Part shown: one piece after another, positions 19,775-42,750 of the stretch
Numbering within the stretch: position 1 is the stretch's first letter
How the letters are laid out: each line of letters starts with the position of its first letter
Source of the DNA: Trichoplax sp. H2
Lineage: Eukaryota
DNA: 64,000 nt
Reading direction: 5' to 3'
NCBI GenBank assembly: GCA_003344405.1
Contig: NOWV01000168.1
Span: 1 to 64,000 of the forward strand
The notes under the pieces: generated by a model
The model's input: the letters and a program-made list of their open reading frames with translations, nothing else
Database searches by the model: none
Told to the model about the DNA's origin: nothing
Program-made: the position numbers and the translations under genes

Positions 19775-20470
19775 ATAGATCATAAAGGGATTGAACCGCA
19801 CCGAACCGAACTCAGGTTCAACTGGTACTCAGCATCAGTACGGTAGTGCACAGTGCACAGTGTACAGTACTGCACTGTAAACCGTCGTCAAAGTACTGTA
19901 GTCAAATGGTATTCAGCATCGGTAGAGGTGTCGCCTGGATACTGGTACTGGTAATCAATAGATCATAAGGGTTTTGAACCGTACCGAACCGCACTCCGGT
20001 CCAACTGGTTACTCAGCATCAGGGCACAGTGCACAGTGTACAGTACTGCACTGTAAAACCGTCGTCAAAGTACTGTAGTCAAATAGTGTACAGTAGTACA
20101 GTACAGTACTGTACAGTACTCTCAGTCCGAGACCCTTATACCTGTACTGTACACTGTGTACACTGTGTACAGTACTGTACTCAGTATCGGTACAGGTGTC
20201 GCCTGGATACTGGTACTGGTAATCAATAGATCATAAAGGTTTGAACCGTACCAAACCGAACTCAGGTCCAACTAGTACTCAGCATCAGTGCACAGTGCAC
20301 AGTGTACAGTACTGCACTATAAACCGTCGTCAAAGTACTGTACAGTACAGTACTGTAGTCAAATAGTGTAGTACTCAGTCGAGACCCTTGTACTGTACTC
20401 AGTATCGGTACTCAGTAGAAACCCTTATACTGTACGTGTACACAGGGTACAGGTGTCGCCTGGATATGCT
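19775..20470. repeat. Three-copy palindrome-rich repeat (about 185-270 bp units) between divergent LSM12 and RACGAP1
   Basis: ATAGATCATAA.GG..TTGAACCG..CC.AACCG.ACTC.GGT.CAACT.G..ACTCAGCATCAG...CACAGTGTACAGTACTGCACT.TAAA.CCGTCGTCAAAGTACTGTA at about 19775, 19958 and 20226. A partial copy lies near 20670-20730. Confidence 0.85.
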
Positions 20471-21207
20471 GTACTGTATACAGGGTGTCTCATAAGTATT
20501 TCCCACTGTTTGAAATCATATGAAATTATAGTTTCAAGCCCTTATTAGACAAATTTGGTATCATTTGATTGGAAATAAGATGCTTTATGCGAATATGTAA
20601 TTTAAATGCACATAAAATGTGTTCAAGTTACTAATACTGTAGTTCTGTACTGCATTAAAGGACGACATTACACAGTGCACAGTGTACGGTATTGCACCCC
20701 AAAATCGCAGTCAAAGTACTGTAGTCAGAGGAGGGGACGAATCACGTGCTATCTCATCGCCAACCAATCAAATCGCTCCGATCATTTTTTCGAATTTGCA
20801 ACACCTCAACAGTACAACAGTAGCCTAGTGTCAAATCAATCAGCCAAAGGCAAAACTTGCTCATCTCCAGTTGAAAAGAATCATCCCAGTCGTCCAATCT
20901 CCCCTATTGATTGCTATCCTGTCGGTTGAAAGCAAGAAGAAAAGGTAAGAGACAAGTAGAGATTGAGCAAGAGTAAGGCAAATTGTTTTTTGAAAATAAG
21001 GGATAGAAATAGGAAGAAAAGTTTACATCCATTTTCAGCCATTTGGTGATACATGCAAATCTATTTCGACGCAGTTGTCATCTTTAGATTGTCTCCATCC
21101 AACTTGACAAATTCTATTCTTCACTTAACAACATACAATAGATGAAATTGTTTTCTTGACGCACTATTTTTAAATTGGATACGCAGAACGATCAACAGTG
21201 AGAAAAG

Positions 21208-26140: not shown

Positions 26141-27244
26141 TGAGATTACTACACAAAATGACTGTTTATAGTATAATATAGATGTCCATGAAAAGATATT
26201 TTAGGTTGATATTAAATCAACATTTTGTTAGAAAGTAGAAATTATTTATATCCAGTATAAATATAAAAATTCATATTTATTATTAAGATTAATTAGAACT
26301 CTCATATTACGCTAAGAAATTTTTTGTATAGTTTCTTATATTTACCGAAACCAGCTACTATAGTACATTAACAAGCGGTTTCAACTATAGTAGATGGTTG
26401 TATTAATCCCTAGTTTTAATATCAATGCTAACTGGGATTATCCTCGTACAAATAAAATAAATAACTCTGTAATGTGCACTACCTTAATATACGTTCTCAT
26501 ATATTTACTTTTATTAAAGTAGGCTAAACCCGTGAGAATATCCGCTATCGTGTAGGTTTTCTCTCACGGTCCAATAGTAATTAGTAAATCTATTGGTCTT
26601 GGTGTTATGATTACTTAGTTATTACGTCACCAAAAATAATAATGCATTAACTCTAAATTTATGTCATGTAAATATATCACTAAATTGTATTGTAAAGGTT
26701 TTCGTTTAGCCTACAGTCAATAAAAATCTTTATTAATTGATTTACAATCAAAATGGGGAAATAATTTATTATTACTATTAGATTGACAATTATTCCAGAT
26801 TTTATATAATGCGTATGCTAGCACCAGCTCTACGATCAATGCTAAATCATTCACCGCATTAATGCTTGCTTAGCATAATCACATAACATCAAACCTTGTT
26901 TGCCGCAGTCACAAGACTATAACCTTTCTTGTAGTACAAATTTGTATTTCTGAAATAATTCGAATTTAGGAACATACAGTAACAGTTATTGTCTCGTAAT
27001 TTTTGGTGATAAAATTCTTTGTATTTAAAAATCTACAAGTACGCTAGAGGAAGTAGTTGTTTGATATTGCGCGTATTCGAATGATTTTATTGCATTATCG
27101 CTTGATATGATCTTTATACAAAGCATCTACGAGTTAACCAAGTAAAACCGCATATTTTCTATTTCTACAAAATTTTTAATCCTGGTAGATCCATTTACTG
27201 AGTTAATTACAAGGCCATAAACACATTCCCCATTCATACATTCT

Positions 27245-28586
27245 CTACAAAGTGGTTGTTACTTCGCCCGATCGGATGGCATCGTAATATTTATCAATGG
27301 CCTTTTGCATTTCAGATTTCTGTAATGCTTTCAGGAAGACATCTAATGTACCTGATTTTCCCTTACTGCAAGACCAGGTCAAAAAAAGTTTATAATACTG
27401 ATTATAACTGCCACGCTCATCGTGACTAATATCGTCAGTATCTTGCTCCTTTAGCTTAAGTTTATTTGCCACTTTCTTAAAATCGTTTCTCTGAAGCCGA
27501 GAAGCGAAAAAATCGAATGTTTGACGTAGGTTATCTCCTGGAAAAAAAATATGATATAAGTTTATGTAAACGGTAATTTAACGATTTATATAAGCATATG
27601 CAGTATTAACTGGATAATTAAGTATATTACCATTGCGAACAATTAGAAAAATCAAGAGTGTAATTATATTTATCTTTGGATTGATACGCTTATTACTGTA
27701 CAAGCAGAAATTACTCAGGTATAGCTTAAGCGCTCACGTAGTTTGCTAGTTAATTGAGAATGAGTGTATAAATATAGCCATGTCCTCTACTGTACTGTAC
27801 AATCTTTTGGATGAAATAGTAAAAGCATAAAATGGAGTACCTTGCATGCTAGGGTAATACAGTATAGTATAAATTTCTGAACCTTGTATTGACAGAGCTT
27901 TCCTATAATCATATCTATTAGTCAAATGTTTCACTCGTGATATTTTACGTACTTGTATACCAAATATAACACATGTATCTCAGCACATAATGCATGCTAT
28001 GTATATTATAATTCTGCATATACATGAATGTATAGTAACTGCTTCCATAAATTAATCCTAAATCGCCTGCCTACTATCCATAACTGCATACTGCAATAGG
28101 TAACTATATGTGTTTTTTTTAATATAGAAATATATACGTATATCAATGGGATGAATTAAATTATACTGCATTTTTACCCCATCTAGCGAGATCTTGCTCA
28201 GATAAGGCATTATTACTTAAATCTGTATCCTTGTTTTCATCTGGTCTGGCTGTATCTTTATCGACATTGATATCTTTCTTTATCTCTTCCCCAATATGTC
28301 GACAATTACATGAAGGTTGAGTAATGATTTTTAAAAAGACGTGGAATTGATTAACCGTTTTACTGAAAAGTAAATTTAACAGTTTGAAATTGGCATCAGA
28401 ATCGATCTGCAATTGCGACAAATTATTAGTAATATTTCGCAATTCCTCCAGAGATAAAACACCTTCGTTGAATAATTCCGAAGCAATTTGCTTAGTTTGT
28501 AAATTATCTTTTAGTGATGTGAAATTTTTCCTTAAAGCCTCAAATTCCTTTTGATCATCTTTTAAAGGAGATTCACCATCGGCCAT
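27245..28586 (-). CDS. CARD plus Death-domain adaptor protein (RAIDD/CRADD-like architecture), 2 exons
   Basis: Exon 1 28586-28178 is CARD-like (ALRKNFTSLKDNL...IASELFNEGVLSLEELRNI...KLLNLL...FHVFLKII). A phase-1 GT-AG intron leads to exon 2 27537-27245, which is DD-like (FKKVANKLKLKEQDTDDISHD...YKLFLTW...GTLDVFLKALQKSEM). Confidence 0.7.
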
Positions 28587-29756
28587 GATGATTGCTAACG
28601 TGGCATGCGAATAGAAAGTTCTAGAGCAAGAGTGCTACTACGCGTCTAAACGCTATGACTTTGTATAGCTAGGACACTGCCTGGTCGAACTCCGACCACC
28701 CAACACGTTGCCATGCAACGTTAGAGCTTGCTTGTGAACAGTAGTGCGTTTAAGGCGTACGATTCTAGTCTGCCGGCACAGTAAAATGGCCAGCAATCAT
28801 AGTCAGCCATAGAATTATCGAGTCTGTCTTTTCTTTTTATTTTAGTAGTTCTTGCTTTTAGTAGTCCCTGGTCACTAATACTCATATTTAGAGATTTTTA
28901 CAAGAAAATGATACAGTACGATGCAACTGTATAGCACAGTGAGGCAGCTGGATTGCGGTTACTTTCGGTACTGTGCAAAGATATTGGCTCCAGCCCTCTA
29001 AGCGCAATATCGTTTTTAACAACGATTTGTATATATATATACAACAGGTAAAATGAGGTCTGTTTCCATCCCTAGTGCAGCCTACTGACTGGCTAGCAAA
29101 AAAGAAGCAGGGTCGACAAATAGAATCCTGTCTCGCACTCTCGTTGCACTGCAGGGGTGCAGGTCTACCACCACCTTACTAGTGCATTGCACGAGCAATA
29201 GGCAATTCTGAAGATCGATCCATCTTCCCTGTCTGTGTACAGTACACCCCATTTGCAATCAAAAATATAAAAAAAAAGAAAACCTTCCTATCTTCCATCC
29301 CTTCCGATATTTTCTGTAGCAAACATCAATATCCATTCTGTTCAGTTCGAGCTGTACTACAATTATTTTCGATAGCCTTAAGAGATTGCTAGTCCCCCAA
29401 AAGAGGTGTGGCTTTTAGCGAGTCGTCAAGATTGAAACTATGCGCAGTCTCATAGCCCCTTTTCCTAATTCGAAAATCGCCAAGTTGTCGCCCCCCTTTA
29501 ACATCTTCTCCCACCTTTGCAAGCCTACCATCCCTGTTTTTCTTCACCAATTTGGCTGCTTCAACTTGTTTTACTCAAGCCGACAAGTAAGCTGTAGGTA
29601 AGTGTAGAAAAATGCTGCTTGTAATGGTTATTGATTGTGTAGAGAGTACTTGAAAGTTGATCAGTAAAGAGTAAGTACGCTTGTATCTTACGTCTTGTGA
29701 TTAATTGCAGGCAGCTTTGAATTAATTGATCACACGGAGAATTGCAACTATCTGAA

Positions 29757-30611
29757 ATGGCTGAAGAAAGACAATCTACCGAGTCGAAAGCACTACAATG
29801 GAACGCCAATGATGAAACGTTAACTGCATTCTTAGATCGATTGCAAGTAGAATTAGATGATCGAGAAATTATCGATAATCAACAGTGTGTCTCCTGTTTA
29901 ATTCGAGCACTTCCACCTCTGATACGAAATGGACTGAAAGCCATGTCCAATGATCAAGACGTAACACAGCAAGATTACCAACAAGTTGTTGAAGAAATCA
30001 AGCAGCAATGCCTACCTCAAGCGCAACCCTCTAAAACGGTGTGGTGGCATCGAGCACAACTCTATCAACGAAAGCAACGATCCAAAGAATCGATTGAACA
30101 ATATAAAAATGTGCTATTAACGCTTGCCAAACACTGCCAGCTCCATTATCATCAAGATATGATGTTGACCATGGTATTTATAGCTGGCTTAAGAGAAAGA
30201 TCCATTCGACGTCGTCTTCTCGATTACCAACAAGAACTCAACTTTATCAAAGTAGTCGATTATGCTTTAGAAATTAAAGCAGAAAAATCAGCCGTGGAGA
30301 CTACACAAGATAATACGCGTATCAATCATGACAGTGATCATCATGATGACCATGCTGAAGTCGATGATAACCACGATGATAACAGTAAAAATCCAAGAAG
30401 AAATCGAAGGAGAGAAAAAAGACCACAGCAAGCGCGAAATACCTATCATGAATCCAAAAAGTCTTGCTATCGTTGTGGAAGTTTCGCTCATCTAGCTGCA
30501 AGTTGTACCTATAGAAGACTATATTGCGACTGGTGTGGAAAGAAAGGCCATATAGTTCGTGAATGTTATGAAAAAATGGACTATGATGACGATTATAACT
30601 ATTATGATTAA
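29757..30611 (+). CDS. Single-coding-exon retrotransposon Gag-like protein (Ty3/gypsy-type capsid region plus two CCHC zinc knuckles), no pol
   Basis: Intact 284-aa ORF from ATG 29757. ETLTAFLDRL, RKQRSKESIEQYKNVLLTLAKHC and VFIAGLRERSIRRRLL are typical of gypsy Gag. Knuckles CYRCGSFAHLAASC and CDWCGKKGHIVREC (CX2CX4HX4C). No protease or RT ORF is seen downstream. Confidence 0.85.
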   Translation: MAEERQSTESKALQWNANDETLTAFLDRLQVELDDREIIDNQQCVSCLIRALPPLIRNGLKAMSNDQDVTQQDYQQVVEEIKQQCLPQAQPSKTVWWHRAQLYQRKQRSKESIEQYKNVLLTLAKHCQLHYHQDMMLTMVFIAGLRERSIRRRLLDYQQELNFIKVVDYALEIKAEKSAVETTQDNTRINHDSDHHDDHAEVDDNHDDNSKNPRRNRRREKRPQQARNTYHESKKSCYRCGSFAHLAASCTYRRLYCDWCGKKGHIVRECYEKMDYDDDYNYYD

Positions 30612-32578
30612 AAATAATAATAGGAACCGATCGATAGTCACTCCAATAGAGTTATCCTAGTAATGATAAAGATATTAACCAACATGACTTAGCCTCGGTT
30701 ATAACAGTATTTAGGAAACGGATATATCTGCTTCTATTTATTGTAACCCATTAATATGCAACTTATCCTATCTTTACTATTTTCAATTAATCAATCGCAA
30801 ATTGCACTACATCGTTATAGATATAGTCCATTTGTAATTGAAAAATTATGTTGAAATTGTTCTCTTATTGATGTTATTCGTATCATGGCTTTCCAGTCGC
30901 GAGCCATAGGTATTTCTACCTTATTTATTCTCAACATCCAATTTGTTACTGTCAGGCCTTTATTATCAAAATCAACTAGTATAGAAGCTAATTCTTATGT
31001 TAGTTGTGTTGTACCATGTTGATGACAAAGAATATGTCTACCACTTCATGTGCAATGTACTGTATATTTTGTATAATCTTCGTGGATTAAATGATATTTA
31101 AGTAATAAAAACTTGTATGTCAACTCTTCGTCTATAACACAGTTATAATCCTTATGTTGTCTCTTATTTCATGTTTAAGCAACGTGGCTGTTGACTATCT
31201 TTTCCATGTCCACTACATGAAAATCCTGTCCTTTTCGATAACGCTACCTTGTTAGTTAATCCTTCCCTTTATCATCGATAGCAGATAAATTTACCTTACC
31301 AATGACTACACGATATTTTGTAAGTATCTCATCGAAATACATCCCGGTACCTTGAATAACAAATTTTTATTTGATCAGTAGCTACTTTTGCATGTCGAAG
31401 TAAAGAGTTGCTATAGTATACTTTAGCATTGAAGTACTGGCTATCAAGCAATGTAGCTATTAACTACTTTCTCCTTTGCCTACTGCGTTGAATCCTTTTC
31501 TTTCCATGCTTCTATTCTTTATTGGATAATCCTATTCTCCTTACGATCTATAAATACGTATATCAGACAACTACCTCCTGAGAATTAAATAGGATGTCTA
31601 CAAATGATGTGGACGGTATTTTGCAAGCATCTCATCGATATACATCTTGATACTTTTACGATAGCAAACTTTATATTTATCAAAGTATAAAATCCACTTG
31701 TACACCATAATGTGCGAAGCGAGAGTTTCCACAGTGTATCTTAATGCAGAAGTACACAATGACGATGATTTACAGGAATTATCGTATGTAGAATAATTCA
31801 TACTTTCATGACAAGAAGATAATTTGGACAGACTAATGTGATAATTAATCTATACTACGTATATTCCATGATACTTTTTTAATACAGAAAATAGTTGTTC
31901 AGTTTACTGTAGTACCGATACTTTAAACCCATCTATTTACTGTTAGTCCTTTACTGCATTCTTAAACATTAATCATATTTGATATATATAGGTTATATAT
32001 CAAACATACGAGTACCTGGTAAATCGATAATGACTAATAAGTGTGGTAGTAGCGTTAGCATAATGGATTAGTTACCAGAGTCAATAAAACAGATCAAAGC
32101 AATACGCTGCCAAATTAAAAAAGACTATCTTGCCTACTTACTATACAACTGTAAGCTATACAATGCAAGCAATAATTCTTGGCTATAAACTAGTAAAGTA
32201 AGAAAGGCAATAAAAAGTATTAAGCTATTTCCACTAAAATTGTATCAAATACCGTACCGGATAAAAATTATAATGACGGATCACGAGTATGATGGAATTC
32301 ATTCCGTAAGGACGTCAGTTGTCATAATATAGAACAGCAACAGCAATATTTTTGTAATATAGTTTCTTTCCTAGATGGGAATAAAGGTGCTTCTTCCCCT
32401 ATGTATTATAATGATTGGATAATCGTTAACATGTTTGAATAGGACCTTAAGATAATTTAAAGCAAGTACAATACATGATACTATACAATAACAAATTGTA
32501 GTCCTTTTAGTAAATCTTTAAAGATGATGCTATTATGATATCTGATTACAAGACTACAGCCAGACAAAATGTAAATAT

Positions 32579-35500
32579 TCAATAATTACCACTATCTTCA
32601 AATCTTCTCATTTCGTCTTCTTTTTCTTGCAGTTTGTTTTCTAAATCATTTTTGGCTCTCAAAAGTAAATCTTTCTCCCCTGAAATATTATCATTCAAAT
32701 AAAAGTGAGTCAGTTTGAGCACTAATTGACATAGTAGAGAATCCACTTTAAGTTATATACATCTAGTTTAAATAATTATACAACTCTACAGGTTTTATTA
32801 TGCTGTCAGTAAATTTTCCGCTCAGAAATAGAGTCATTTCATTATGAGTATATAGATCTCACGATTAACTCATGTCGTAGAAAGTCCTCTCTTAAATGAT
32901 ATTTGGATTAATCATTGACAAAAAGTTGATCTTATAAACGGGCTATGGCTTACTTTCCAAATCCAGGATTTGAGCAGCTTGACTTTCAATAAGTCGTTGC
33001 TTCTCTTCCTTAACTTCTTTACTTGACGTATTATCTTGTTCAAGCTTCTTTACCGCGTCTAATAATAAAAACAAGAATTAATAGGAATTTACCATCTACT
33101 AGTAATTATCAAATCATTCGTGCAATGGTATGCCGAATAAGATAATCTAAGCATACATTTAGGAGATGTTCTACCTCGATACAAATAGTAATTACAAGCT
33201 ATTTGCAGTTAGTTAACCTTTTAAATTTTTAATATTAATATCTTGACGCTGGATTTGTTGAGTTCGATCAGACACTAAAGCCGACAAATTTTCCTTCTCC
33301 CTAATCAATTCAGTTACTATATCAAAAAAATATAATTGATAATTAATATAACTTCATAGGGCAAGGATAATATAAACTACCCATTTAATTAGTTGCTACA
33401 GCAATAAACAATTAATCATTGATTTATGTATGAATCTATAAATAGATAGCATAATGATATCTGACAAAATTTTTACATGTACGCGTATATTAACACTAAT
33501 TATGTTCTAGGATTTAATTTACCATTCTAGTTATATGAATAGAATCACATATCAATACCTGATATTAAGTCTGAGGAATTTGGAAGCTGAATTTGAGCTG
33601 TTTGTAACGGCAGTCGAGACTTATTCTTATTTGTATCTACATGTAACAAATTGAAAGACATAATTAGTATTATTAGAATTGCTAACGGCTACTGCATAAC
33701 TTATAACTTTATAAAGCACACCAAGAGGCAGCGCATAGATAGAGTTTTGCGTTTGAATAAATAATCAGGACTAACATAAAAATTTAAGTGATGGAATTGA
33801 ACAAAGTATTTTATGTTAGAACTACTACATGATATGTAACTCCATAGATCTTATCAAAAGTAAGTTCAAAAGTAGAATTTTGAGATTGAACAAGATCATC
33901 AGGACTACTAGCTGTGGTAGTATATTTTACCTGACTTCATAACTATCAAGTTTACGGATTATACATTATATAGAAAAAATCAGCATAAAAATCCAAATGA
34001 TGATGGTGTTGGTGAAGATGGTTTACAACTATCAGCGCTAATAGCACTCTATAAAAGCCATTTGTATCATTATTGTGAAATGCCTAAGGAGTCTACGTCT
34101 GTAGACTCTTCGAACCCTCCATCACACTATTAAAACACTAAATTTCTAGCTCATCGTACCAGTTATAAAACCAGAATTAAATTCTTCACCTAATTGCGCG
34201 CCATCGAAATTATCATCTACGTGAGGAATAATTATAATTAATTCATTATTGGAGATGTAAACACCAATTTACGATTAGGAATAGAAATTATTTGCCAGCA
34301 CTATATAATTAGTAATTTCTATTGCCTGGTAATCGCATCACTTCAAGTTTATCCTAGTTAAGTAATTCAGACAGCAATTTAGTTACCGTACCATGATTAT
34401 TAATTGATAGATCCCGTTGTTTAAGATTATTTATTTCTTCCATCCGTTGAGATAGATCATAAGCCATGGATCGCTTATCTTGTAGTAATCTGTTATTTTC
34501 AGCTACAATTATTTAGAGGAAGGAATATATTATAACAATTAACTTTACTTTTCGTTTCTAGGAAATTTTAATAGAATTGTTCCAGATTATGATATAATTG
34601 ATATATTTCATTGTTCATTCTTGTAGAGTCTTATTTAATCATCATACCTTGTAGGATTTCAATTTTGTTATTTAATTGCAAAACTATAGTAGAATTGGAC
34701 GAATCTTCTTTATCAGATTTGTTACTGGTTTCGAATTTTTTAATAAACGCACTAACTGCCGGTTTTTCTTCTGCTGTTTCTGCAATAAAATTGATCGGTA
34801 CGATTTGAAATAGATCTATTTCGTAATAAGCCTATGACGAGAAAATGTGTCGCCTTTTAGTCAATAAACAATTTCTATAGCAACCTGATGACTTGCTTGT
34901 AGACATAGATGGCTTTCCATCCTCGCTATGTGAAGCATTACTATCTGTACGCTTTCTTGTCTCATCCTTCTTGTCTTTCGCTTCAGTAATTACATTCATA
35001 TCCGCTAATTTATGGTGAGAAAATTATAAAAATTAGTTGATATACATTAGCTTTACATCGCAATAGTCTAAATCTATACAGTATCCAACTCAGTAATTTA
35101 AACTAACACATTAAGTTTTGAACTCTTTCTTGTAAGAGCAAAATCTTTTGATGTTTGGCCGTTGATTTTTTTGCAGGCGATCCCAACTCAATTGTTCCGC
35201 TTGTTAAATCATCTATATATATAAATAAATTAATGTTGTTCATAACTAGTTATCCCTAGTATTTCAATTTTAAATTAAAGAGACTATCACGATGGAAATT
35301 AATCGCTTGCAATAATAGATAGGAATAGCTTATGTCTAAGTCCCCGGAAATTTACTAAATTCGGCATTTTACAATATGATAAAAACCTTTGTAGATTATA
35401 CAATACACTTCATGACCGCATACCTAATAATTGCCATAACTTGAATACTAGCCGTTTTATTTCTTCTTCTCGATCTAACATAATCTTTTGCGAAATTCTT

Positions 35501-38500
35501 TTCTCTTGATATAGTCCTTTCTGTTCCACTAAAGTAGCAAAGATAGATTACTATACTGATACATTGATGGGTAAAATAAATGAAAGCCTAAGTTGTATTA
35601 AGACAGTTTAAGCAACGATTAGGATAAATGCGATGGAATTTCTTTAGGCGTAAGTAATATAAATAAAAGTGATGCCTTATTTTGCATTAATTCAATCGAA
35701 AATCAAGCTCCAATTTATCATACATAGTAACTTGGCCACTTTGCTTTCATGTAGTTTTAACTCATTTTCTTTCTTTTCTAATTGTTCCTCCAACTGTTTC
35801 TTTTCCGAATAAATGGCATCCTTGTCAGCTAGAGATTTTATAGTCAATACAGGCACGATAAAAATGTTGAATGGAATTTCCATAAATAGACTATATTAAA
35901 TGCCAAAGTAGCTTAAATAATAAGCATTAGCTCTTGAGTTATTACAAATGTTAACACAAATAATATAAAGTAGTGCTATGAAACAAGAGTAAACATTTTT
36001 GATTACTCATAGCTTAAAATATGAATTTATTAATTCATTTAAGAATTGAAAATATGAATTACTGATATCACTATATCGTATGTAGTCAATTACAGCTATT
36101 ATAGCACTTAAACAGGGGCAAATATTTTTAATTACGAATATTTTGAAACATGAATTTACTAATTAATTTAAGAATTGAAAATATGGATTACTGATACCAC
36201 TATATCATATGTTACTAATCATAGCTATTAGGGGATAGTTACATAATGAATTACATTCGACGTTAATCCTTTTACGTTGGTTCGCTGGAGTATAACGTAT
36301 TTACTGTTATTGCAAATATTTATTTTTAAGCTAGGGCATTCTTGACAGGGACATCTGAGAAGAAATTCTGAAATTTCCCCTTAAAAGTCCCTATTCTTGA
36401 GATGATCTAGCGCTAAAAGTATTAGACTTTATCAAAATGATGGCTCGTCTCTCTAGTATTTGCATAACATTATAAGGTTGGTTCTATCAGTGCTTATGAT
36501 AGCAAGAATTGGAGAAAGCATGCAAACGAAATTTGTTCGTTATAAGAGATAGTTTAATTGATGCAACATGATCGTAGATAGAACCGTAAATATGAATTTA
36601 CCTATGGCTTTCTTTACCTGATACTCTCTCTAAGGTTTTTTGCATGAACTGCATGGGTTCATTGGAAGTGTTTGTTGGACTTCCATCATTAGACTGTTCA
36701 CCTTCTGTGGAGGCTAGTTTTCCTGAATAGAGTTGATTAAAATCAATCAGAATAGTCCTTTTACCTAAGACCACTAGTAGTATTCATTTTTAAAGCGCAT
36801 AACACAAATAGACGGAGTAAATTCCTTCAATTTGAATAAATCGTTATCACAGAATTCCACCTTCTGTAAATATATCAAAAATAATCTATTTTGTATCCAT
36901 TAGGAATAATGCACCAAGATAGATTAGTTCTATAATCTTGGTGATTAAATTGCAATTATTAAGTTTTATACAGTAGCAAGTGAAATTTTCATGCAATGGA
37001 ATAGATCAGTTCTTATAACCAATAACAACAATTGAAAAATTTCTTTTAAATTATTCATCTCAATATCCAATTTATATTTCAATGTGAATTCCAACAGGAT
37101 AATATTGAAATAATAGTAGTGTTACCCATGAAAGTCGAGAGATAATACTTTAATTAATTATTAATGAACGTTTTTAATGTAAATAAGCAAGTATCTATGG
37201 CCTAGTATAAAATAACGATAAAGAATTATCCCGATCATCGATGCATAAGACTTCATGATATTAACTCAAGCCCTCAAAATAGGAATAAATTCATTTAGCA
37301 TAACAGATATGAACTACTGATAAATCACTTTTACTAGTTAATGTTTAAATGTAATATCTATGTAAAGGCTAATATAACATTGTTTAATGGATCCTTAGCA
37401 ATAAATGTTCTATTCTAACGACTAAAATGGTTAAGGGTTGCTACAAATTTAATACAAGATATTACATGTTGCATCAGACATTAAACTTAAAAGTAAATAC
37501 TACAGACGTAATCTCAGAGTCATTATCATTCTGCATTGCTCCAAAGTTTGTACAAATAACCACTACGGTAAGCTTGGGATCGAGATGGAAAGAGAGGTAC
37601 AAAATTGGATTAGTAAAAATATTAAGCTACTACGAATGTTATTGCAGCCAATCTTTTAATAGAAATCATCCTGAATAGTAAACGGATGAACAGAATAGAT
37701 TCTTATTGATTATAGTACGAACAGCTTTGAAGCAATTTAGAAGAAATCTACCGTTGAACCTGCAAAATTTACTCAAGATAGTATCGCCAATAAAAATAAA
37801 ATCGATTTATTTGTTGATGCCGACAAGACGTTAGATAGTAGTGCGATGCTTTGGGTGACAGTGAAAGATAGGATTAAAGAAACATAGAGACGATATGAAC
37901 TATGAGAAATCTCTTACCGTAATTGCCAAACGAATCTGCTCTTCGCCTTAATTCATGAATTTCCACTTGCTTATTACCGACCTTCTTTTTTAGTGATTCA
38001 TTCTCTTTCCTTAACGATTCCTTTTCGGCTAATAAAATATGAAGTTATCGATATTATTCAAGTATCATAGCAGGATTGTAAGAGAATGGTTGCGGCGATA
38101 TATAATTACTGTTAAATTAATGTACATTTTAATTAGAATGGTATATATGAACGAGCATAAACTATAGTTTGGAATAAGATGAGCATGGATAACGAGGCAA
38201 TCTGATGCCATTACTGATCGTAAATGAAGCTCTTGCTAAAATCTAAGAGCAGGGCTAGAAGGCCTAAATCTATGCAACGATTACATTCTAATCCACTACT
38301 CGAATAACTTAGTAGAATTGACAATATCCCATTGCTAGATTATAATCATCAGCGTGAGATATTCCATTTACTAATTTCATCATCATATTACTTAATCTAA
38401 TCTATTGAAGCGATCTTAATAAAAGGTGTTAGACTGTCTAGCAAGTGTAGGATGTTAGCGGATGGTGTGGATATCGGCTAATAAAGTGTTAAGTAATCGA

Positions 38501-39526
38501 TATTCTGCAAGTATTGTAACAAGATTGAACAGATGTGAGGCTATGGTAGTACATCGATACTGTTAATATACATTGTAATTGTAATTGGATCCATGCACGA
38601 GCGAAAACTATAATTTCGAATAAGGTGAGCATGGATTCCGATGGAATCTGATGCTATTGCTAATCCTAAATGAAGACTCTTACTGAAATCTCTAGGCAGG
38701 AAAGATGACCTAAATCAATGCAACGATTGCCTTCCAATCGACTACTCCAATAACTTCAAATCTGCAAAGATAGATCAATCAACGAGTAAGATTGTCGATA
38801 TCTTATTGCTCGATTAACAGCATGCGATGCTCTGTTTACTAATACTATCGGGTTATTCAATTGAATTTATTGAAGCGATGATAGCAAAAATGGAACTCAA
38901 TAAAAAGCGTTGAAAGGTGTTTGTTTCTTGTTCATTTTCAATCGACTAGAAAAGTCTTTCTCATTTTACAGTCAAATTTTCATTCTTTTTGTCCTTTACA
39001 AAGTTCTGTTTACTAATTTCATCATGTTATTCAATCTAATCTATTGAAAGGATCATAGTAAGGGTAGAGCGGTCGAACAAATGTTGAATGCTATTTGTTT
39101 CTTGTTCATTTTTAATCCATTCGAAAAGTATATATGCCGCCAACTTTAAAATTTTCTATTTTACTGAGAAATTCAAATTCTTTATATTCTTTACAGAGCT
39201 GTTATCAAATTTTATACCAATATTGTCAATGGGTGCAATAAAAGAATCGATTTAAGAAGCTTTAATGATACGTATGTTGCCATTTTACGTGGTTATCGTG
39301 TCTTGCCGTATTGCTGCCGACTATCTTAATGTCGATTTATATCTTCAAAAAATGAATTTATTTGCTATCCTTTTCTATGCTTGTAAGCAAGCTATTGTGT
39401 CTCGACTTATTCAAAATTGGAAACGTGATTTAGACAAGATCAATGATATAATTTACCTTCTAAATTCCAAATTTTATCCACAAGCCTTTTGGACTCAACA
39501 CCTTTGCCAGCACCTTCAGTTTCCAT
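32579..39526 (-). CDS. Unidentified coiled-coil protein (about 467 aa), 14 or more exons, all introns phase 1
   Basis: GT-AG exons 39526-39457, 38028-37918, 36722-36618, 35828-35724, 35528-35424, 35212-35108, 35004-34885, 34779-34648, 34502-34392, 34216-34160, 33636-33559, 33316-33218, 33058-32954 and 32679-32579 splice into one open frame of E/K/L-rich heptads. An alternative last exon 31547-31519 is possible via a donor at 32589. Confidence 0.7.
38080..39130. repeat. Degenerate intronic duplications
   Basis: ACGAGC..AAACTATA.TTT.GAATAAG.TGAGCATGGAT...AATCTGATGC...TAAATGAAG.CTCTT... at about 38150 and 38597. TGTTTACTAAT...AATCTAATCTATTGAA-like motifs at about 38365, 38830 and 39005. Confidence 0.6.
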
Positions 39527-40814: not shown

Positions 40815-42750
40815 AAGATGGAAATTAGAATCGAGTTGCAGCGGCTCGTCTCTTGATTAAAATTTTGTACTTAAGCATTATGGAAAGGAAACTATTTTAA
40901 AGTTGCAAACTGAGGTCCTGTACCTATCGAAGTGAGTGTTTTATTTGGCTTTTGCCGACGACATGATAGAAGTAAAGATTTCTAAAATCAACGGAAATCG
41001 AGTAGTAGCAGCTCGTCTCTTGATTAAAATTTTGTATATAAGCATTATGGAAAGGAAGCAATTTTAAAGTTGCAAACTGAGCTACTGTACCTATCGAAAT
41101 GAGTATTTTATTTAGATTTTGCCGACGACATGATAGAAGTTAAAATTCCTAAAATCAACAGCTAGAAAGACTAAAATACTTTTTCAGAAAAGGAAAATAT
41201 CAATGGATACTTAGGCAAGAAAATGTCTAAAATGCACCATGAAGTATTCGGCTGGCAGAGTAAAAGGGAATACTGTTTGTTGTTTACTGGCAACATTATG
41301 CAGTAGTAAACAAATGTTCCTAGAATTAGCTGATAGGCTGGCTTATATAATTCTGCCTTATACAGTAAAAGTGATTCCTTTTATCGTTTGCCGACGACAT
41401 TATGTAGCAGTTAATAAATATTCCCTAGCACAGCATGATAGACGTAAGGTGTACAATTATGGGGACTTCTCACGCCTGTAAACGCTTACATTTTTGGCCT
41501 TTTATCGACAATATTATGAAATAAAGATTCCTAGAATAAGCCAATAGAATGACTGAAAAAGAAAATACTTTAATTCCTAATGAAATCTCTTTCTAATAGC
41601 TAATACTTTTGGCGTTTTCCGACGATGTTACAGTAAATAAATATTTCTAGAACAACCTGATATACACTAGGAATACAACGATAAGTGTAAACTTCTACTC
41701 CTAGAATGAATAGATCAAAGGGTATTAAAAAGACTGAAAAAGAAAATGTAGATCCTGTACATCCATTAAGCAAGGAAAGACTTAAATTACCTAATCAAGC
41801 CATTTTCTAACAGCTAATGCTGTTTAACAATCATTAACTGACAATATTATAGTAAATAACTATTTCCTAGAACCACCTGATATACGATAGGAATACAACG
41901 ATAAGTGTAAACTTCTACTCCTAGAATGAAAAGGTCGAAGGGAAAAGACTGAAAAAGAAATTGTTGATCCTGTACATCCATTAAGCAAGGAAAGACTTAA
42001 AATGCCTAATCAAGCTTCTTTCTAACAGCTAATGCTGTTATCATTAACTGACGATATTATAGTAAATAGCTATTTCCTAGAACCACCTGATATACACTAG
42101 GAATACAATGATAAGTACGAACTGCTAGCCCTAGAATAAACCAATAGAAAGGAAAAAGATTGAAAAAGAAAATATCAATACTGTACGTCTAGATATTAAG
42201 CAAGGAAGTACTTAATATACTTAGTGAAGCTTCCATCTATAACTATAGAAGCAAATACTTTTATCCTTTACTGGCGATATTATCATAAATAAATATCACC
42301 TAGTGCAACCCGATCCACGTCTGTTAAAGGAATACAATTTGAAGTAGGAGCTCTACTCCTATGAGCGCTAACATTTCTTTCGCCTTTTCTCGATGACATG
42401 AAATAAAAAATTCCTAGAATAAACTGATACAAAGACTGAAAAAATTTGTAAATGCGAATACATACTTTACTCAAGAAAATGTTTAAAATACCTAAAGAAG
42501 CTTCCTTTTAGTATAGTAGCAGCGAATACTTTTGTCGTTTACCGACAATACTACAGAAATGAATATTCGCTAGAACAACCTGATATACACTGGGGAGTGC
42601 AGGTAGAAGTATGAGCTTTTATTTGTAAGCGCTTATAATCTTTTACCTTTATCGATGACATCAGAGAACTGAAAATCCCTTGACATGAATTAATGTAAAG
42701 ACTTCAAAAGAAAATGTCAATGTATTCGTTAAGCAAGATTTTTCAGCGGT
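40815..42750. repeat. Diverged tandem array of about 170-230 bp units
   Basis: A near-identical pair lies at about 40820-40990 and 40991-41160. Units containing CTAGAAC.ACCTGATATAC...GGAATACAA.GATAAGT...AAAGACTGAAAAAGAAA...TTAAGCAAGGAA occur near 41645, 41865, 42075 and, more diverged, 42300 and 42570. Confidence 0.8.

What the first reader, a model, noticed from the sequence alone, without database searches (positions are those of the whole stretch)
29587..31110. Candidate domesticated retrotransposon Gag gene (capsid plus two zinc knuckles, no pol, host-style transcript)
Seen in sequence: an uninterrupted 284-aa Gag-like ORF with two intact CCHC knuckles ends in an acidic Tyr-rich tail (DYDDDYNYYD). 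No protease/RT/integrase ORF follows and no LTR pair is evident. Just upstream is a plausible 5'UTR intron (GTAAGT at 29598 or GTAAGC at 29587, to TTGCAG at 29710), the ATG has a good context (GAAATGG), and an AATAAA lies near 31104. Established: Arc, PEG10, the PNMA/RTL genes and Fv1 are Gag-derived host genes, and some form RNA-carrying capsids. Inference: this may be an independent Gag domestication in a basal animal, possibly forming RNA-packaging particles or acting as a restriction factor.
Basis: partly seen in the sequence, partly recalled or inferred. Interest (0 to 1): 0.8.

Follow-up and report, generated by a model that had tools for sequence, protein, structure and literature searches.

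The report
Domesticated retrotransposon Gag gene in Trichoplax
A placozoan (Trichoplax) host gene that is a complete retrotransposon capsid-plus-nucleocapsid (Gag) protein with no other element parts, is transcribed and spliced like a normal gene, and is kept intact in diverged relatives, so it is probably a new, independent case of an animal taming a viral-type capsid protein.

Summary
Window 29757-30611 (+) is one 284-aa ORF, the longest in 64 kb. It is 99% identical to the uncharacterised T. adhaerens protein TRIADDRAFT_55062.

- **Fold:** an AlphaFold2 model (pLDDT 82) gives a two-lobed helical capsid. The top 35 of 50 structural matches are retroviral or retrotransposon capsids (MLV, MOAP1, PEG10, PNMA2, dArc, Ty3). 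Two CX2CX4HX4C knuckles follow.
- **Relatives:** the nearest are Gag parts of Ty3/gypsy Gag-Pol proteins, at only 23-31% identity.
- **No element around it:** no pol remnant in the window and no flanking repeat pair in 20000-42000.
- **Conservation:** two further lineages (53-58% identity) keep the ORF, all knuckle Cys/His and a clade-specific acidic Tyr-rich tail. The linker has diverged. Under simulated neutral drift to that divergence, 0 of 1000 ORFs stayed open.

**Verdict:** a domesticated Ty3/gypsy gag gene (about 0.8), with no published report found.

**Not tested:** function. My best guess is an RNA-binding, self-assembling capsid-like protein. Genome-wide copy number, synteny and codon-level dN/dS could not be tested.

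The parts
29502..29586 (+). 5'UTR exon 1. The 5' limit is a minimum. It extends to 29597 when the alternative donor is used.
   Evidence: X11 RNA contig covers 29502-29586 joined to 29711-30769. X3 contig is joined 29595(+2)|29709(+2). No ATG in this exon (read).
29587..29710 (+). 5'UTR intron, 124 nt, GT..AG. The alternative donor GTAAGT at 29598 gives a 113-nt intron.
   Evidence: Joints 'skips 124 GT..AG' (X11) and 'skips 113 GT..AG, cut +2' (X3), table 5.
29711..31125 (+). Exon 2: 46-nt 5'UTR remainder, whole CDS and about 0.5-kb 3'UTR. The 3' end is approximate.
   Evidence: X8 contig covers 29713-31243 and X11 contig covers 29711-30769. AATAAA at 31104.
29757..30611 (+). Intronless CDS, 284 aa plus stop (P0001).
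   Evidence: Exact protein is on record, and it is 99% identical to TRIADDRAFT_55062.
29769..30011 (+). Capsid N-terminal lobe (about residues 5-85, helical).
   Evidence: AF2 helices 5-85, pLDDT mostly above 83. Ty3 CA-NTD 6r22: Z 7.8, rmsd 3.0, 72 aligned, residues 17-93. Arc N-lobe 4x3h: Z 7.2.
30039..30332 (+). Capsid C-terminal lobe (about residues 95-192). It holds the near-invariant E111, L120, C127, L137, G144.
   Evidence: MLV CA 6hwx Z 10.9. MOAP1 7lgc Z 10.8, rmsd 2.4 over 94. PEG10 7lga Z 10.6. Near-invariant columns.
30333..30452 (+). Disordered linker: His/Asp-rich, then basic (RRNRRREKRPQQAR). It holds a 12-nt in-frame indel polymorphism near 30362.
   Evidence: pLDDT below 50 over 196-230. 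Indel seen in X3 and X11, matching the 4-aa difference to P0002. Only 8/38 identical to P0157.
30465..30506 (+). CCHC zinc knuckle 1 (C237-C250).
   Evidence: Motif. Pfam zf-CCHC E 4.8e-4. HIV-1 NC match E 5e-5.
30525..30566 (+). CCHC zinc knuckle 2 (C257-C270).
   Evidence: Motif. Columns C257, C260, G264, H265, C270 are at least 90% conserved in 76 relatives.
30567..30608 (+). Acidic, Tyr-rich C-terminal tail (YEKMDYDDDYNYYD), specific to the clade.
   Evidence: The tail motif was found in 4 of 160 stored proteins. Those 4 are exactly the placozoan-type rows.
31104..31109 (+). AATAAA, candidate poly(A) signal.
   Evidence: No read-level 3' end is available (laid contigs only).

Best explanation

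**What was kept and lost.** Only Gag survives: a two-lobed capsid (CA) domain, a disordered acidic-then-basic linker and a two-knuckle nucleocapsid (NC). It ends in a short acidic Tyr-rich tail that is specific to this clade. Protease, RT, RNase H, integrase and LTRs are gone.

**How it is expressed.** The gene has acquired a host-type transcription unit: a non-coding first exon, a 5'UTR intron with two alternative donors, a single coding exon and a 3'UTR of about 0.5 kb. It sits head-to-head with a Death-domain gene.

**Shown here:** Gag homology and fold, absence of pol and LTR locally, spliced transcription, and conservation of ORF, domains and tail in two diverged relatives.

**Inferred mechanism.** The unprocessed protein (no protease) oligomerises through its CA lobes into an immature-type capsid-like shell or smaller oligomers. 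It binds RNA through the basic linker and the two zinc knuckles. The acidic tail probably tempers that binding or the assembly.

I rate the downstream roles as follows:
- Arc/PEG10-like packaging and possibly transfer of RNA: about 0.4.
- Gag-interference restriction of retroelements or viruses: about 0.25.
- A non-capsid RNA-chaperone or adaptor role: about 0.2.

The confidence given is for 'domesticated Ty3/gypsy gag gene', not for a particular role.
For: **Gag homology**
- phmmer against 1.84 billion representatives: 2334 hits at E <= 1e-3. Residues 17-273 align to 122-376 of a 1198-aa protein at E 6.4e-19.
- All six long hits scanned carry RNase H-like and integrase-type domains, four also RVT_1, and five an aspartyl-protease match.
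- 35 of 76 aligned relatives match Pfam Retrotrans_gag, 13 PNMA and 3 Ty3_capsid.
- The family profile hits dArc1 (4.8e-5), PNMA2 (1.5e-4) and Ty3 Gag (3e-4) by sequence.

**Fold**
- AF2 mean pLDDT 82.4.
- The ten best Foldseek matches are all Arc, dArc1, MLV or PNMA2 capsid chains, though none reaches E 1e-3.
- In the Foldseek-independent search, ranks 1-35 of the 50 rows shown are all retroviral or retrotransposon capsids, Z up to 10.9, covering both lobes.

**No element around it**
-.

**Host-style transcript**
-. X3 and X8 also splice the neighbours' introns, so they are cDNA-derived.

**Selection**
- P0157 (272 aa) and P0006+P0007 are 53-58% identical to the window protein.
- Identity is domain-structured: NTD 45/90, CTD 60/92, linker 8/38, knuckles 28/41, tail 5/7.
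- The four rows form one clade (SH-aLRT 100) on a stem of 1.19 changes per column.
- Neutral drift to 53-57% identity left 0 of 1000 ORFs open at each of three target identities, with a mean of about 9 stops.

**Context**
- A published survey reports TEs as 0.13% of the T. adhaerens genome.
- It found all 53 gypsy-like pieces degenerate, and complete ORFs only in 6 hAT or mariner elements (PMC2871265, section 3 part 1).
Against: - **Pfam below cut-off:** on the protein itself both Pfam matches fall below their curated cut-offs. Retrotrans_gag scores 17.5 against 24.1 bits, and zf-CCHC 20.5 against 20.8.
- **Weak Foldseek E-values:** the best is 4.9e-3. Z of about 10 is within the range that helical models can reach by chance, according to the tool's own note. 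The case rests on the uniformity of the hit list plus the sequence homology.
- **Relatives unnamed:** the two diverged relatives come from unnamed records. Their taxon, genomic context, copy number and absence of pol are unknown. They could in principle be gag genes of a still-mobile family.
- **No genome:** no whole genome was available, so copy number and synteny are untested.
- **Few variants:** only 3 substitutions were seen in the CDS among four runs (2 synonymous, 1 D258N), too few for a test.
- **Function:** nothing here measures assembly, RNA binding or any phenotype.
Confidence: 0.8

Rival explanations
1. Gag-derived restriction factor. The protein co-assembles with, or binds, incoming or endogenous retroelement or viral capsids and poisons them, as described for Fv1, Ty1 p22/Drt2 and enJS56A1 (recalled). 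It would thereby help keep placozoan genomes almost free of active retroelements.
For: - Complete CA lobes, so it could mix into a foreign lattice.
- A solved Gag-CTD restriction factor, Drt2 (9rxy), is among the structural matches at Z 7.9.
- The genome is reported to have 0.13% TEs and no active element (PMC2871265).
- The divergent neighbour encodes a Death domain, a fold common in innate-immune signalling. This is a weak association.
- Divergence between lineages is fairly fast, at 53-58% identity.
Against: - No intact Ty3/gypsy target is reported in the genome to maintain selection.
- The knuckles and the basic linker are among the best-kept parts, which a pure capsid-poisoning role does not obviously need.
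- No test for positive selection was possible.
Confidence: 0.25
2. Not domesticated. The ORF is the gag of a mobile or recently dead element, for example a non-autonomous gag-only element or a solo relic, that happens still to be open.
For: - The CDS is intronless, and its nearest relatives are transposon Gags.
- Copy number in the genome could not be measured.
- The context of the two diverged relatives is unseen.
Against: - No flanking repeat pair in 20000-42000 and no pol remnant in the 64-kb window.
- A spliced 5'UTR intron with host-type GT..AG sites.
- One unspliced 10,474-nt record (run X1) crosses the whole 6-kb stretch without a break at the ORF borders, and no contig fits two places of the stretch.
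- There is no relative above 31% identity outside the small clade.
- The ORF is kept at 53-58% identity, where 0 of 1000 neutral simulations stay open.
- The stop is at the same place after a shared tail in 3 lineages.
Confidence: 0.07
3. A domesticated Gag that no longer forms capsids. It would act as a cytoplasmic or nuclear RNA chaperone or adaptor, with CCHC knuckles as in CNBP or Lin28 and the CA lobes used as peptide-binding modules, as in monomeric Arc (recalled).
For: - The profile of the family also hits Lin28 and AIR2 knuckles.
- The Arc N-lobe, a peptide-binding module, is matched at Z 7.2.
- There is no membrane-targeting N-terminus: the protein starts MAEE, with no Gly2 for myristoylation.
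Against: Both CA lobes are kept with high model confidence. The CTD, the main dimerisation lobe in known capsids, is the best conserved part at 60/92.
Confidence: 0.2

Closest known systems
Gag of Ty3/gypsy (Metaviridae) LTR retrotransposons, for example the Gag part of 'K02A2.6-like' Gag-Pol proteins (P0009, Diaphorina citri) and Ty3 Gag3
   Same: Collinear CA-NTD, CA-CTD, basic linker and two CCHC knuckles. 23-31% identity over about 250 residues. Ty3 CA-NTD is matched at Z 7.8.
   Different: No protease, RT, RNase H, integrase or LTRs. It has a host-type spliced 5'UTR and a clade-specific acidic Tyr-rich tail directly after knuckle 2.
PEG10 and MOAP1/PNMA family (mammalian Ty3/gypsy-derived genes)
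   Same: Gag-derived host genes. Their CA C-terminal domains are among the best structural matches: 7lga Z 10.6, 7lgc Z 10.8, PNMA2 8rb3 Z 9.7.
   Different: The window protein has no Pfam PNMA match at E <= 1. Those families arose in mammals (PMC8321522, section 6). PEG10 keeps a protease through a frameshift and has one knuckle (recalled). Here there is no pol frame at all and there are two knuckles.
Arc (tetrapods) and dArc1/2 (flies)
   Same: Bilobed CA of Ty3/gypsy origin, expressed from a host gene. Arc CTD 7r24 is the top Foldseek hit, and the dArc1 capsid is matched by structure and by profile.
   Different: Independent origins, in tetrapods and Muscomorpha (PMC8321522, section 6). Mammalian Arc has no zinc knuckles and has an added N-terminal coiled-coil domain (recalled). 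No assembly or RNA-transfer data exist for the placozoan protein.
Crtg1, a co-opted Mdg3-like gag of beetles (Wang and Han 2021)
   Same: An invertebrate Ty3/gypsy gag co-option that is mostly single copy (PMC8321522, section 6).
   Different: Different host phylum and different source lineage. The paper's main text does not mention Trichoplax or Placozoa (0 occurrences).
Gag-derived restriction factors (Fv1, Ty1 p22/Drt2)
   Same: Endogenised Gag pieces that are expressed by the host. Drt2 CA-CTD is matched at Z 7.9.
   Different: Those keep only part of Gag and lack NC knuckles (recalled). No restriction activity has been tested here.

Membership tests
Ty3/gypsy-type Gag (Retrotrans_gag superfamily) | Significant sequence similarity to the Gag part of Gag-Pol polyproteins | tested here: met
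   E 6.4e-19 to a 1198-aa protein with RNase H-like and integrase domains and a sub-threshold protease match. The five other long hits also carry RNase H and integrase-type domains, and four of them RVT_1. tblastn of five Gag-Pol proteins gives E 7e-24 to 3e-12 at the ORF.
Ty3/gypsy-type Gag (Retrotrans_gag superfamily) | Pfam PF03732 at or above the gathering score | tested here: not met
   17.5 bits against a cut-off of 24.1. 35 of 76 aligned relatives match at E <= 1e-3.
Ty3/gypsy-type Gag (Retrotrans_gag superfamily) | Two-lobed all-helical retroviral-type capsid fold | tested here: met
   AF2 pLDDT 82.4. Ranks 1-35 of the VIA-align list are retro-capsids, Z up to 10.9, with both lobes matched.
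Ty3/gypsy-type Gag (Retrotrans_gag superfamily) | CCHC zinc knuckle(s) after the capsid | tested here: met
   Two CX2CX4HX4C motifs. HIV-1 NC match at E 5e-5. Pfam zf-CCHC scores 20.5 against 20.8 bits, just under the cut-off.
LTR retrotransposon (mobile element) | Flanking long terminal repeats | tested here: not met
   No direct-repeat family brackets the ORF in 20000-42000. Diverged or gapped repeats could be missed.
LTR retrotransposon (mobile element) | Linked pol (PR, RT, RNase H, IN) | tested here: not met
   No pol hit better than E 0.58 anywhere in the 64 kb.
LTR retrotransposon (mobile element) | Multiple copies in the genome | not testable with these tools
   No genome is held. Indirect evidence only: one record spans the locus, and no contig fits two places of the laid 6 kb.
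Co-opted (domesticated) gag gene | Orthologues kept in diverged host lineages | tested here: inconclusive
   Two further lineages at 53-58% identity form one clade. Their organisms and loci are unknown.
Co-opted (domesticated) gag gene | Conserved synteny | not testable with these tools
   No other placozoan genome or contig could be fetched. The metagenome scan found none.
Co-opted (domesticated) gag gene | Purifying selection | tested here: met
   By proxy only: 0 of 1000 neutral simulations keep the ORF, and conservation is domain-structured. Codon-level dN/dS was not possible.
Co-opted (domesticated) gag gene | Expression from a host-type transcript | tested here: met
   Spliced contigs in X11 (an RNA library) and X3. 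X8 has a contig across the CDS and 3'UTR.
Arc / PNMA / RTL (known animal Gag-derived families) | Match to the family's own sequence model | tested here: not met
   No Arc, PNMA or RTL-type Pfam family among the 9 listed at E <= 1 for the window protein. The similarity is at fold and superfamily level only.
Capsid-forming Gag proteins | Self-assembly into shells | not testable with these tools
   Needs recombinant protein and EM.

The most novel reading that the evidence does not exclude
Placozoans carry their own lineage-wide, complete (CA + NC) Gag gene. It would build RNA-loaded capsid-like particles for cell-to-cell RNA transfer. That would mean Arc/PEG10-type signalling arose independently in an animal with no neurons or synapses, with the clade-specific acidic Tyr-rich tail acting as the switch on RNA binding or assembly. 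A second bold reading is that the same protein is the Gag-interference factor behind the near-absence of active retroelements in placozoan genomes.
Probability: 0.2. Interest if true: 0.85.

Novelty: new member of a known kind. Interest (0 to 1): 0.55.

Why it matters
Gag domestication is known from tetrapods, mammals, flies and beetles. A systematic screen of 2,011 eukaryotes listed only seven animal events and none in a non-bilaterian (PMC8321522: abstract, section 6, and passages found).

A full-architecture Gag gene (both capsid lobes plus two knuckles) in Placozoa would have three consequences:
- It would extend the phenomenon to one of the earliest-branching animal phyla.
- It would offer a minimal animal, with few cell types and almost no transposons, in which to ask what a tamed capsid does.
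- It would provide a compact natural CA-NC protein for assembly and RNA-packaging studies.

The gene is already annotated as an uncharacterised CCHC protein. What would be new is recognising its origin and its conservation, not the ORF itself.

Tried and rejected
- **Whole-genome search:** no genome is held for this window, so copy number and synteny stay open.
- **Complex prediction, two copies of CA residues 1-195:** 'no answer' (score 0.01, controls not run). This is neither for nor against self-association.
- **Metagenome scan for orthologue DNA:** 305 pattern matches, none confirmed, so no DNA for dN/dS.
- **The search of earlier findings:** nothing on record.
- **Pfam on the upstream 141-aa exon ORF 28161-28586 (-):** only sub-threshold, unrelated hits. 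My impression that it is CARD-like is unsupported.
- **Literature.** No report of this gene as Gag-derived was found with these searches:
  - 'Trichoplax + gag + domesticated': 5 papers, none on this by title or abstract.
  - 'placozoa + retrotransposon + gag': 17 papers, 16 listed, none on this.
  - 'TRIADDRAFT_55062': 0 papers.
  - 'placozoa / Arc / capsid / Gag-like': all 15 listed papers (of 163 holding at least 3 terms) had 0 occurrences of placozoa.
- **Supplements closed:** additional file 2 of PMC2871265 (its list of 139 TE-like pieces) and the supplements of PMC8321522 could not be seen. They may mention the locus.
- **Variant density as a constraint test:** 3 of the 40 listed variant places (5 more not shown) fall in the 855-nt CDS of the 6,001 nt laid. 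That is too few to conclude anything.
- **Parts of the laid stretch without cover in some runs:** not interpreted.
Full report
**1. The observation**

- Window 29757-30611 (+) is an uninterrupted ORF of 284 codons plus stop.
- An in-frame TGA lies at 29727-29729, so ATG 29757 (context GAAATGG) is the first start available (read).
- It is the longest stop-to-stop ORF in the 64-kb window. Only 4 ORFs reach 120 codons, and the next longest has 157.
- That fits a single-exon coding region in an otherwise intron-rich genome.
- The protein has two CX2CX4HX4C knuckles (C237-C250, C257-C270) and ends in YEKMDYDDDYNYYD.

**2. Identity of the gene**

- The exact protein is on public record.
- It is 99% identical to a 280-aa protein that its sources name 'uncharacterized protein TRIADDRAFT_55062 [Trichoplax adhaerens]' and 'CCHC-type domain-containing protein'.
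- The only difference seen is a 4-residue indel in a DDN(H) repeat of the linker.
- So the window is from a Trichoplax genome, and the ORF is an annotated but uncharacterised gene.

**3. It is a Gag**

On the single sequence, Pfam gives only sub-threshold matches: zf-CCHC 20.5 bits against a cut-off of 20.8, and Retrotrans_gag 17.5 against 24.1. The PDB sequence search finds only the knuckles, with HIV-1 NC at E 5e-5.

An exhaustive phmmer search of 1.84 billion representatives is much clearer:
- 2334 proteins at E <= 1e-3 and 113 at E <= 1e-10.
- Typical alignments cover residues about 15-275 at 23-31% identity.

Long hits are Ty3/gypsy-type polyproteins:
- All six that I scanned carry RNase H-like and integrase-type domains, four also RVT_1, and five an aspartyl-protease match.
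- One is named 'K02A2.6-like' from a psyllid by its source.

Of the 76 aligned relatives, 35 match Retrotrans_gag, 13 PNMA, 3 Ty3_capsid and 14 a gag-associated aspartyl protease. A profile of that alignment reaches dArc1 (E 4.8e-5), PNMA2 (1.5e-4) and Ty3 Gag (3e-4) among solved structures by sequence alone.

The AlphaFold2 model built with this alignment:
- Mean pLDDT is 82.4.
- Helices between residues 5 and 192 form two lobes.
- A disordered stretch at 196-230 is followed by the knuckles.

Structure searches:
- Foldseek against the PDB lists Arc CTD, dArc1, MLV CA, PNMA2, PEG10 and MOAP1 first, with weak E-values (best 4.9e-3).
- The Foldseek-independent search puts retroviral or retrotransposon capsids at ranks 1-35 of the 50 rows shown.
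- C-lobe matches: MLV CA Z 10.9, MOAP1 Z 10.8 (rmsd 2.4 over 94), PEG10 Z 10.6.
- N-lobe matches: Ty3 CA-NTD Z 7.8 (residues 17-93) and Arc N-lobe Z 7.2.
- The tool warns that helical models can reach such Z values by chance. I rely on the uniform hit list together with the sequence homology.

**4. Nothing else of an element is there**

- Five Gag-Pol proteins laid on the whole window by tblastn match only with their Gag part at the ORF (E 7e-24 to 3e-12). No other hit is better than E 0.58.
- None of the 10 direct-repeat families found in 20000-42000 brackets the ORF.
- Outside a small clade (section 6), no protein in the representative library exceeds 31% identity apart from knuckle-only repeat proteins. 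So no closely related Gag-Pol element is on record.

**5. Host-type transcript**

Contigs of four public runs were laid on 27000-33000.
- **X11** (recorded as RNA-seq): a 1132-nt contig joins 29502-29586 to 29711-30769, skipping 124 nt with GT..AG ends.
- **X3:** a contig joins 29597 to 29711 (skips 113, GT..AG). The same contig removes the CT..AC introns of both minus-strand neighbours, so it is cDNA-derived.
- **X8:** a 1531-nt contig covers 29713-31243, which is the CDS and 3'UTR.
- AATAAA lies at 31104 and ATTAAA at 31086.
- Contigs cannot fix the ends, and beyond 31225 the convergent neighbour's transcript overlaps.
- **X1:** unspliced at all these joints. One 10,474-nt record spans the whole stretch, so it behaves as DNA. 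There is no break at the ORF borders, and no contig fits two places of the stretch. This is weak evidence against near-identical extra copies.
- **Variants in the CDS:** I38 synonymous, R222 synonymous, D258N, and a 12-nt in-frame deletion at 30362 in X3 and X11.

**6. Conservation**

- The searches found a 272-aa protein (P0157) and two overlapping pieces of another (P0007, 137 aa; P0006, 228 aa). All come from unnamed records and are 53-58% identical to the window protein.
- All keep the open frame, every Cys and His of both knuckles, and a stop right after an acidic Tyr-rich tail (DYYDYY, DYEYYEYYD).
- Identity to P0157 is domain-structured: N-lobe 45/90, C-lobe 60/92, linker 8/38, knuckles 28/41, tail 5/7.
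- P0157 and P0006 are closer to each other (151/217) than to Trichoplax.
- In a maximum-likelihood tree of 76 rows, the four rows form one clade (SH-aLRT 100) on a stem of 1.19 changes per column. P0007 was left out as a fragment that overlaps P0006.
- In a simulation of substitution-only drift of the window's CDS to 57, 55 or 53% protein identity, 0 of 1000 sequences kept an open frame each time, with a mean of about 9 stops.
- I infer purifying selection on a protein that predates the split of these lineages.
- I infer that the two relatives are other placozoans. This is not shown. Their mutual closeness would fit the recalled placozoan taxonomy, but their source, context and copy number are unknown.

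**7. Context from the literature**

- A repeat survey of T. adhaerens reports TEs as 0.13% of the genome and 53 gypsy-like pieces. Most elements carry stops or frameshifts, complete ORFs occur only in 6 hAT or mariner elements, and none is active.
- Its main text never uses the word 'gag' (PMC2871265: abstract, term search, and section 3 part 1 of 2).
- The eukaryote-wide screen for co-opted gag genes lists seven animal events: Crtg1 of beetles, Arc, dArc, two RTL, PNMA and SCAN. Its main text does not mention Trichoplax or Placozoa (PMC8321522: abstract, passages, section 6).
- Four further searches found no report of this gene.
- Supplements of both papers were not visible and could list the locus.

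**8. How it most likely works**

*Shown:* a CA-linker-NC protein without protease, expressed from a spliced host transcript and conserved.

*Inferred:*
- Being unprocessed, it would act as an immature-type Gag.
- The CA lobes would mediate self-association.
- The basic stretch (RRNRRREKRPQQAR) and the two knuckles would bind RNA.
- The conserved acidic Tyr-rich tail, placed where relatives continue into protease, may fold back on the basic NC or serve as a docking motif.
- There is no Gly2, so no myristoyl membrane anchor.

*Odds for the downstream role:*
- Arc/PEG10-like RNA packaging: about 0.4.
- Restriction by Gag interference: about 0.25.
- Non-capsid RNA-chaperone or adaptor role: about 0.2.

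None of these was tested. The one co-folding attempt gave no verdict (see Tried and rejected).

**9. Comparison and verdict**

- It works like the known domesticated Ty3/gypsy Gags, but it is not a member of the Arc, PNMA or RTL sequence families.
- It fails the defining features of a mobile LTR element locally.
- It is best filed as a new, independent member of the known kind 'co-opted gag gene'.
- It is notable for its complete CA + two-knuckle architecture, its clade-specific tail and its host phylum.
- Confidence that it is a domesticated gag gene is about 0.8. Interest is 0.55.

Noticed in passing
window 27000-28635 (-): The divergent upstream neighbour is a spliced minus-strand gene. Its intron 27537-28176 is removed in X3 and X8. 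The exon ORF 27245-27472 matches the Pfam Death domain (E 2.9e-6, above cut-off). The 141-aa exon ORF 28161-28586 has no significant family.
   Followed up: partly
window 31225-33000 (-): The convergent downstream gene has three spliced CT..AC introns (31348-31464, 32398-32588, 32679-32952). Its transcript overlaps the end of the Gag transcript contig at 31225-31243.
   Followed up: no
window 30362-30373: A 12-nt in-frame indel polymorphism sits in a GATGATAAC(CAC) repeat of the His/Asp-rich linker. It is deleted in runs X3 and X11 and in the T. adhaerens reference protein, and present in the window, X1 and X8.
   Followed up: partly
window 20025-20727: Three copies of a 57-nt repeat rich in ACAGT/CACAGTG units. 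A published survey reports ACAGT as the unusually abundant microsatellite motif of T. adhaerens (PMC2871265, abstract).
   Followed up: no
window 38025-39129, 40829-41159, 41644-42000: Several local tandem or near-tandem duplications of 43-164 nt at 67-97% identity (repeat families D1, D3, D4, D6-D10). Their nature is unknown.
   Followed up: no
window 27148 and 28823 (run X11): Two separate X11 contigs end with the same unmatched letters (GTGTTTGA, and GTGTTTGAAC at the other place) on their low-coordinate side. This may be a library or adapter artefact or a shared joined sequence. It was not examined.
   Followed up: no
window 28636-29501: The roughly 0.9-kb stretch between the two divergent genes is covered by cDNA-derived contigs (X3 continuous, X8 to 28871, X11 28823-29013). 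One or both 5'UTRs, or an unannotated transcript, therefore extend into it.
   Followed up: no
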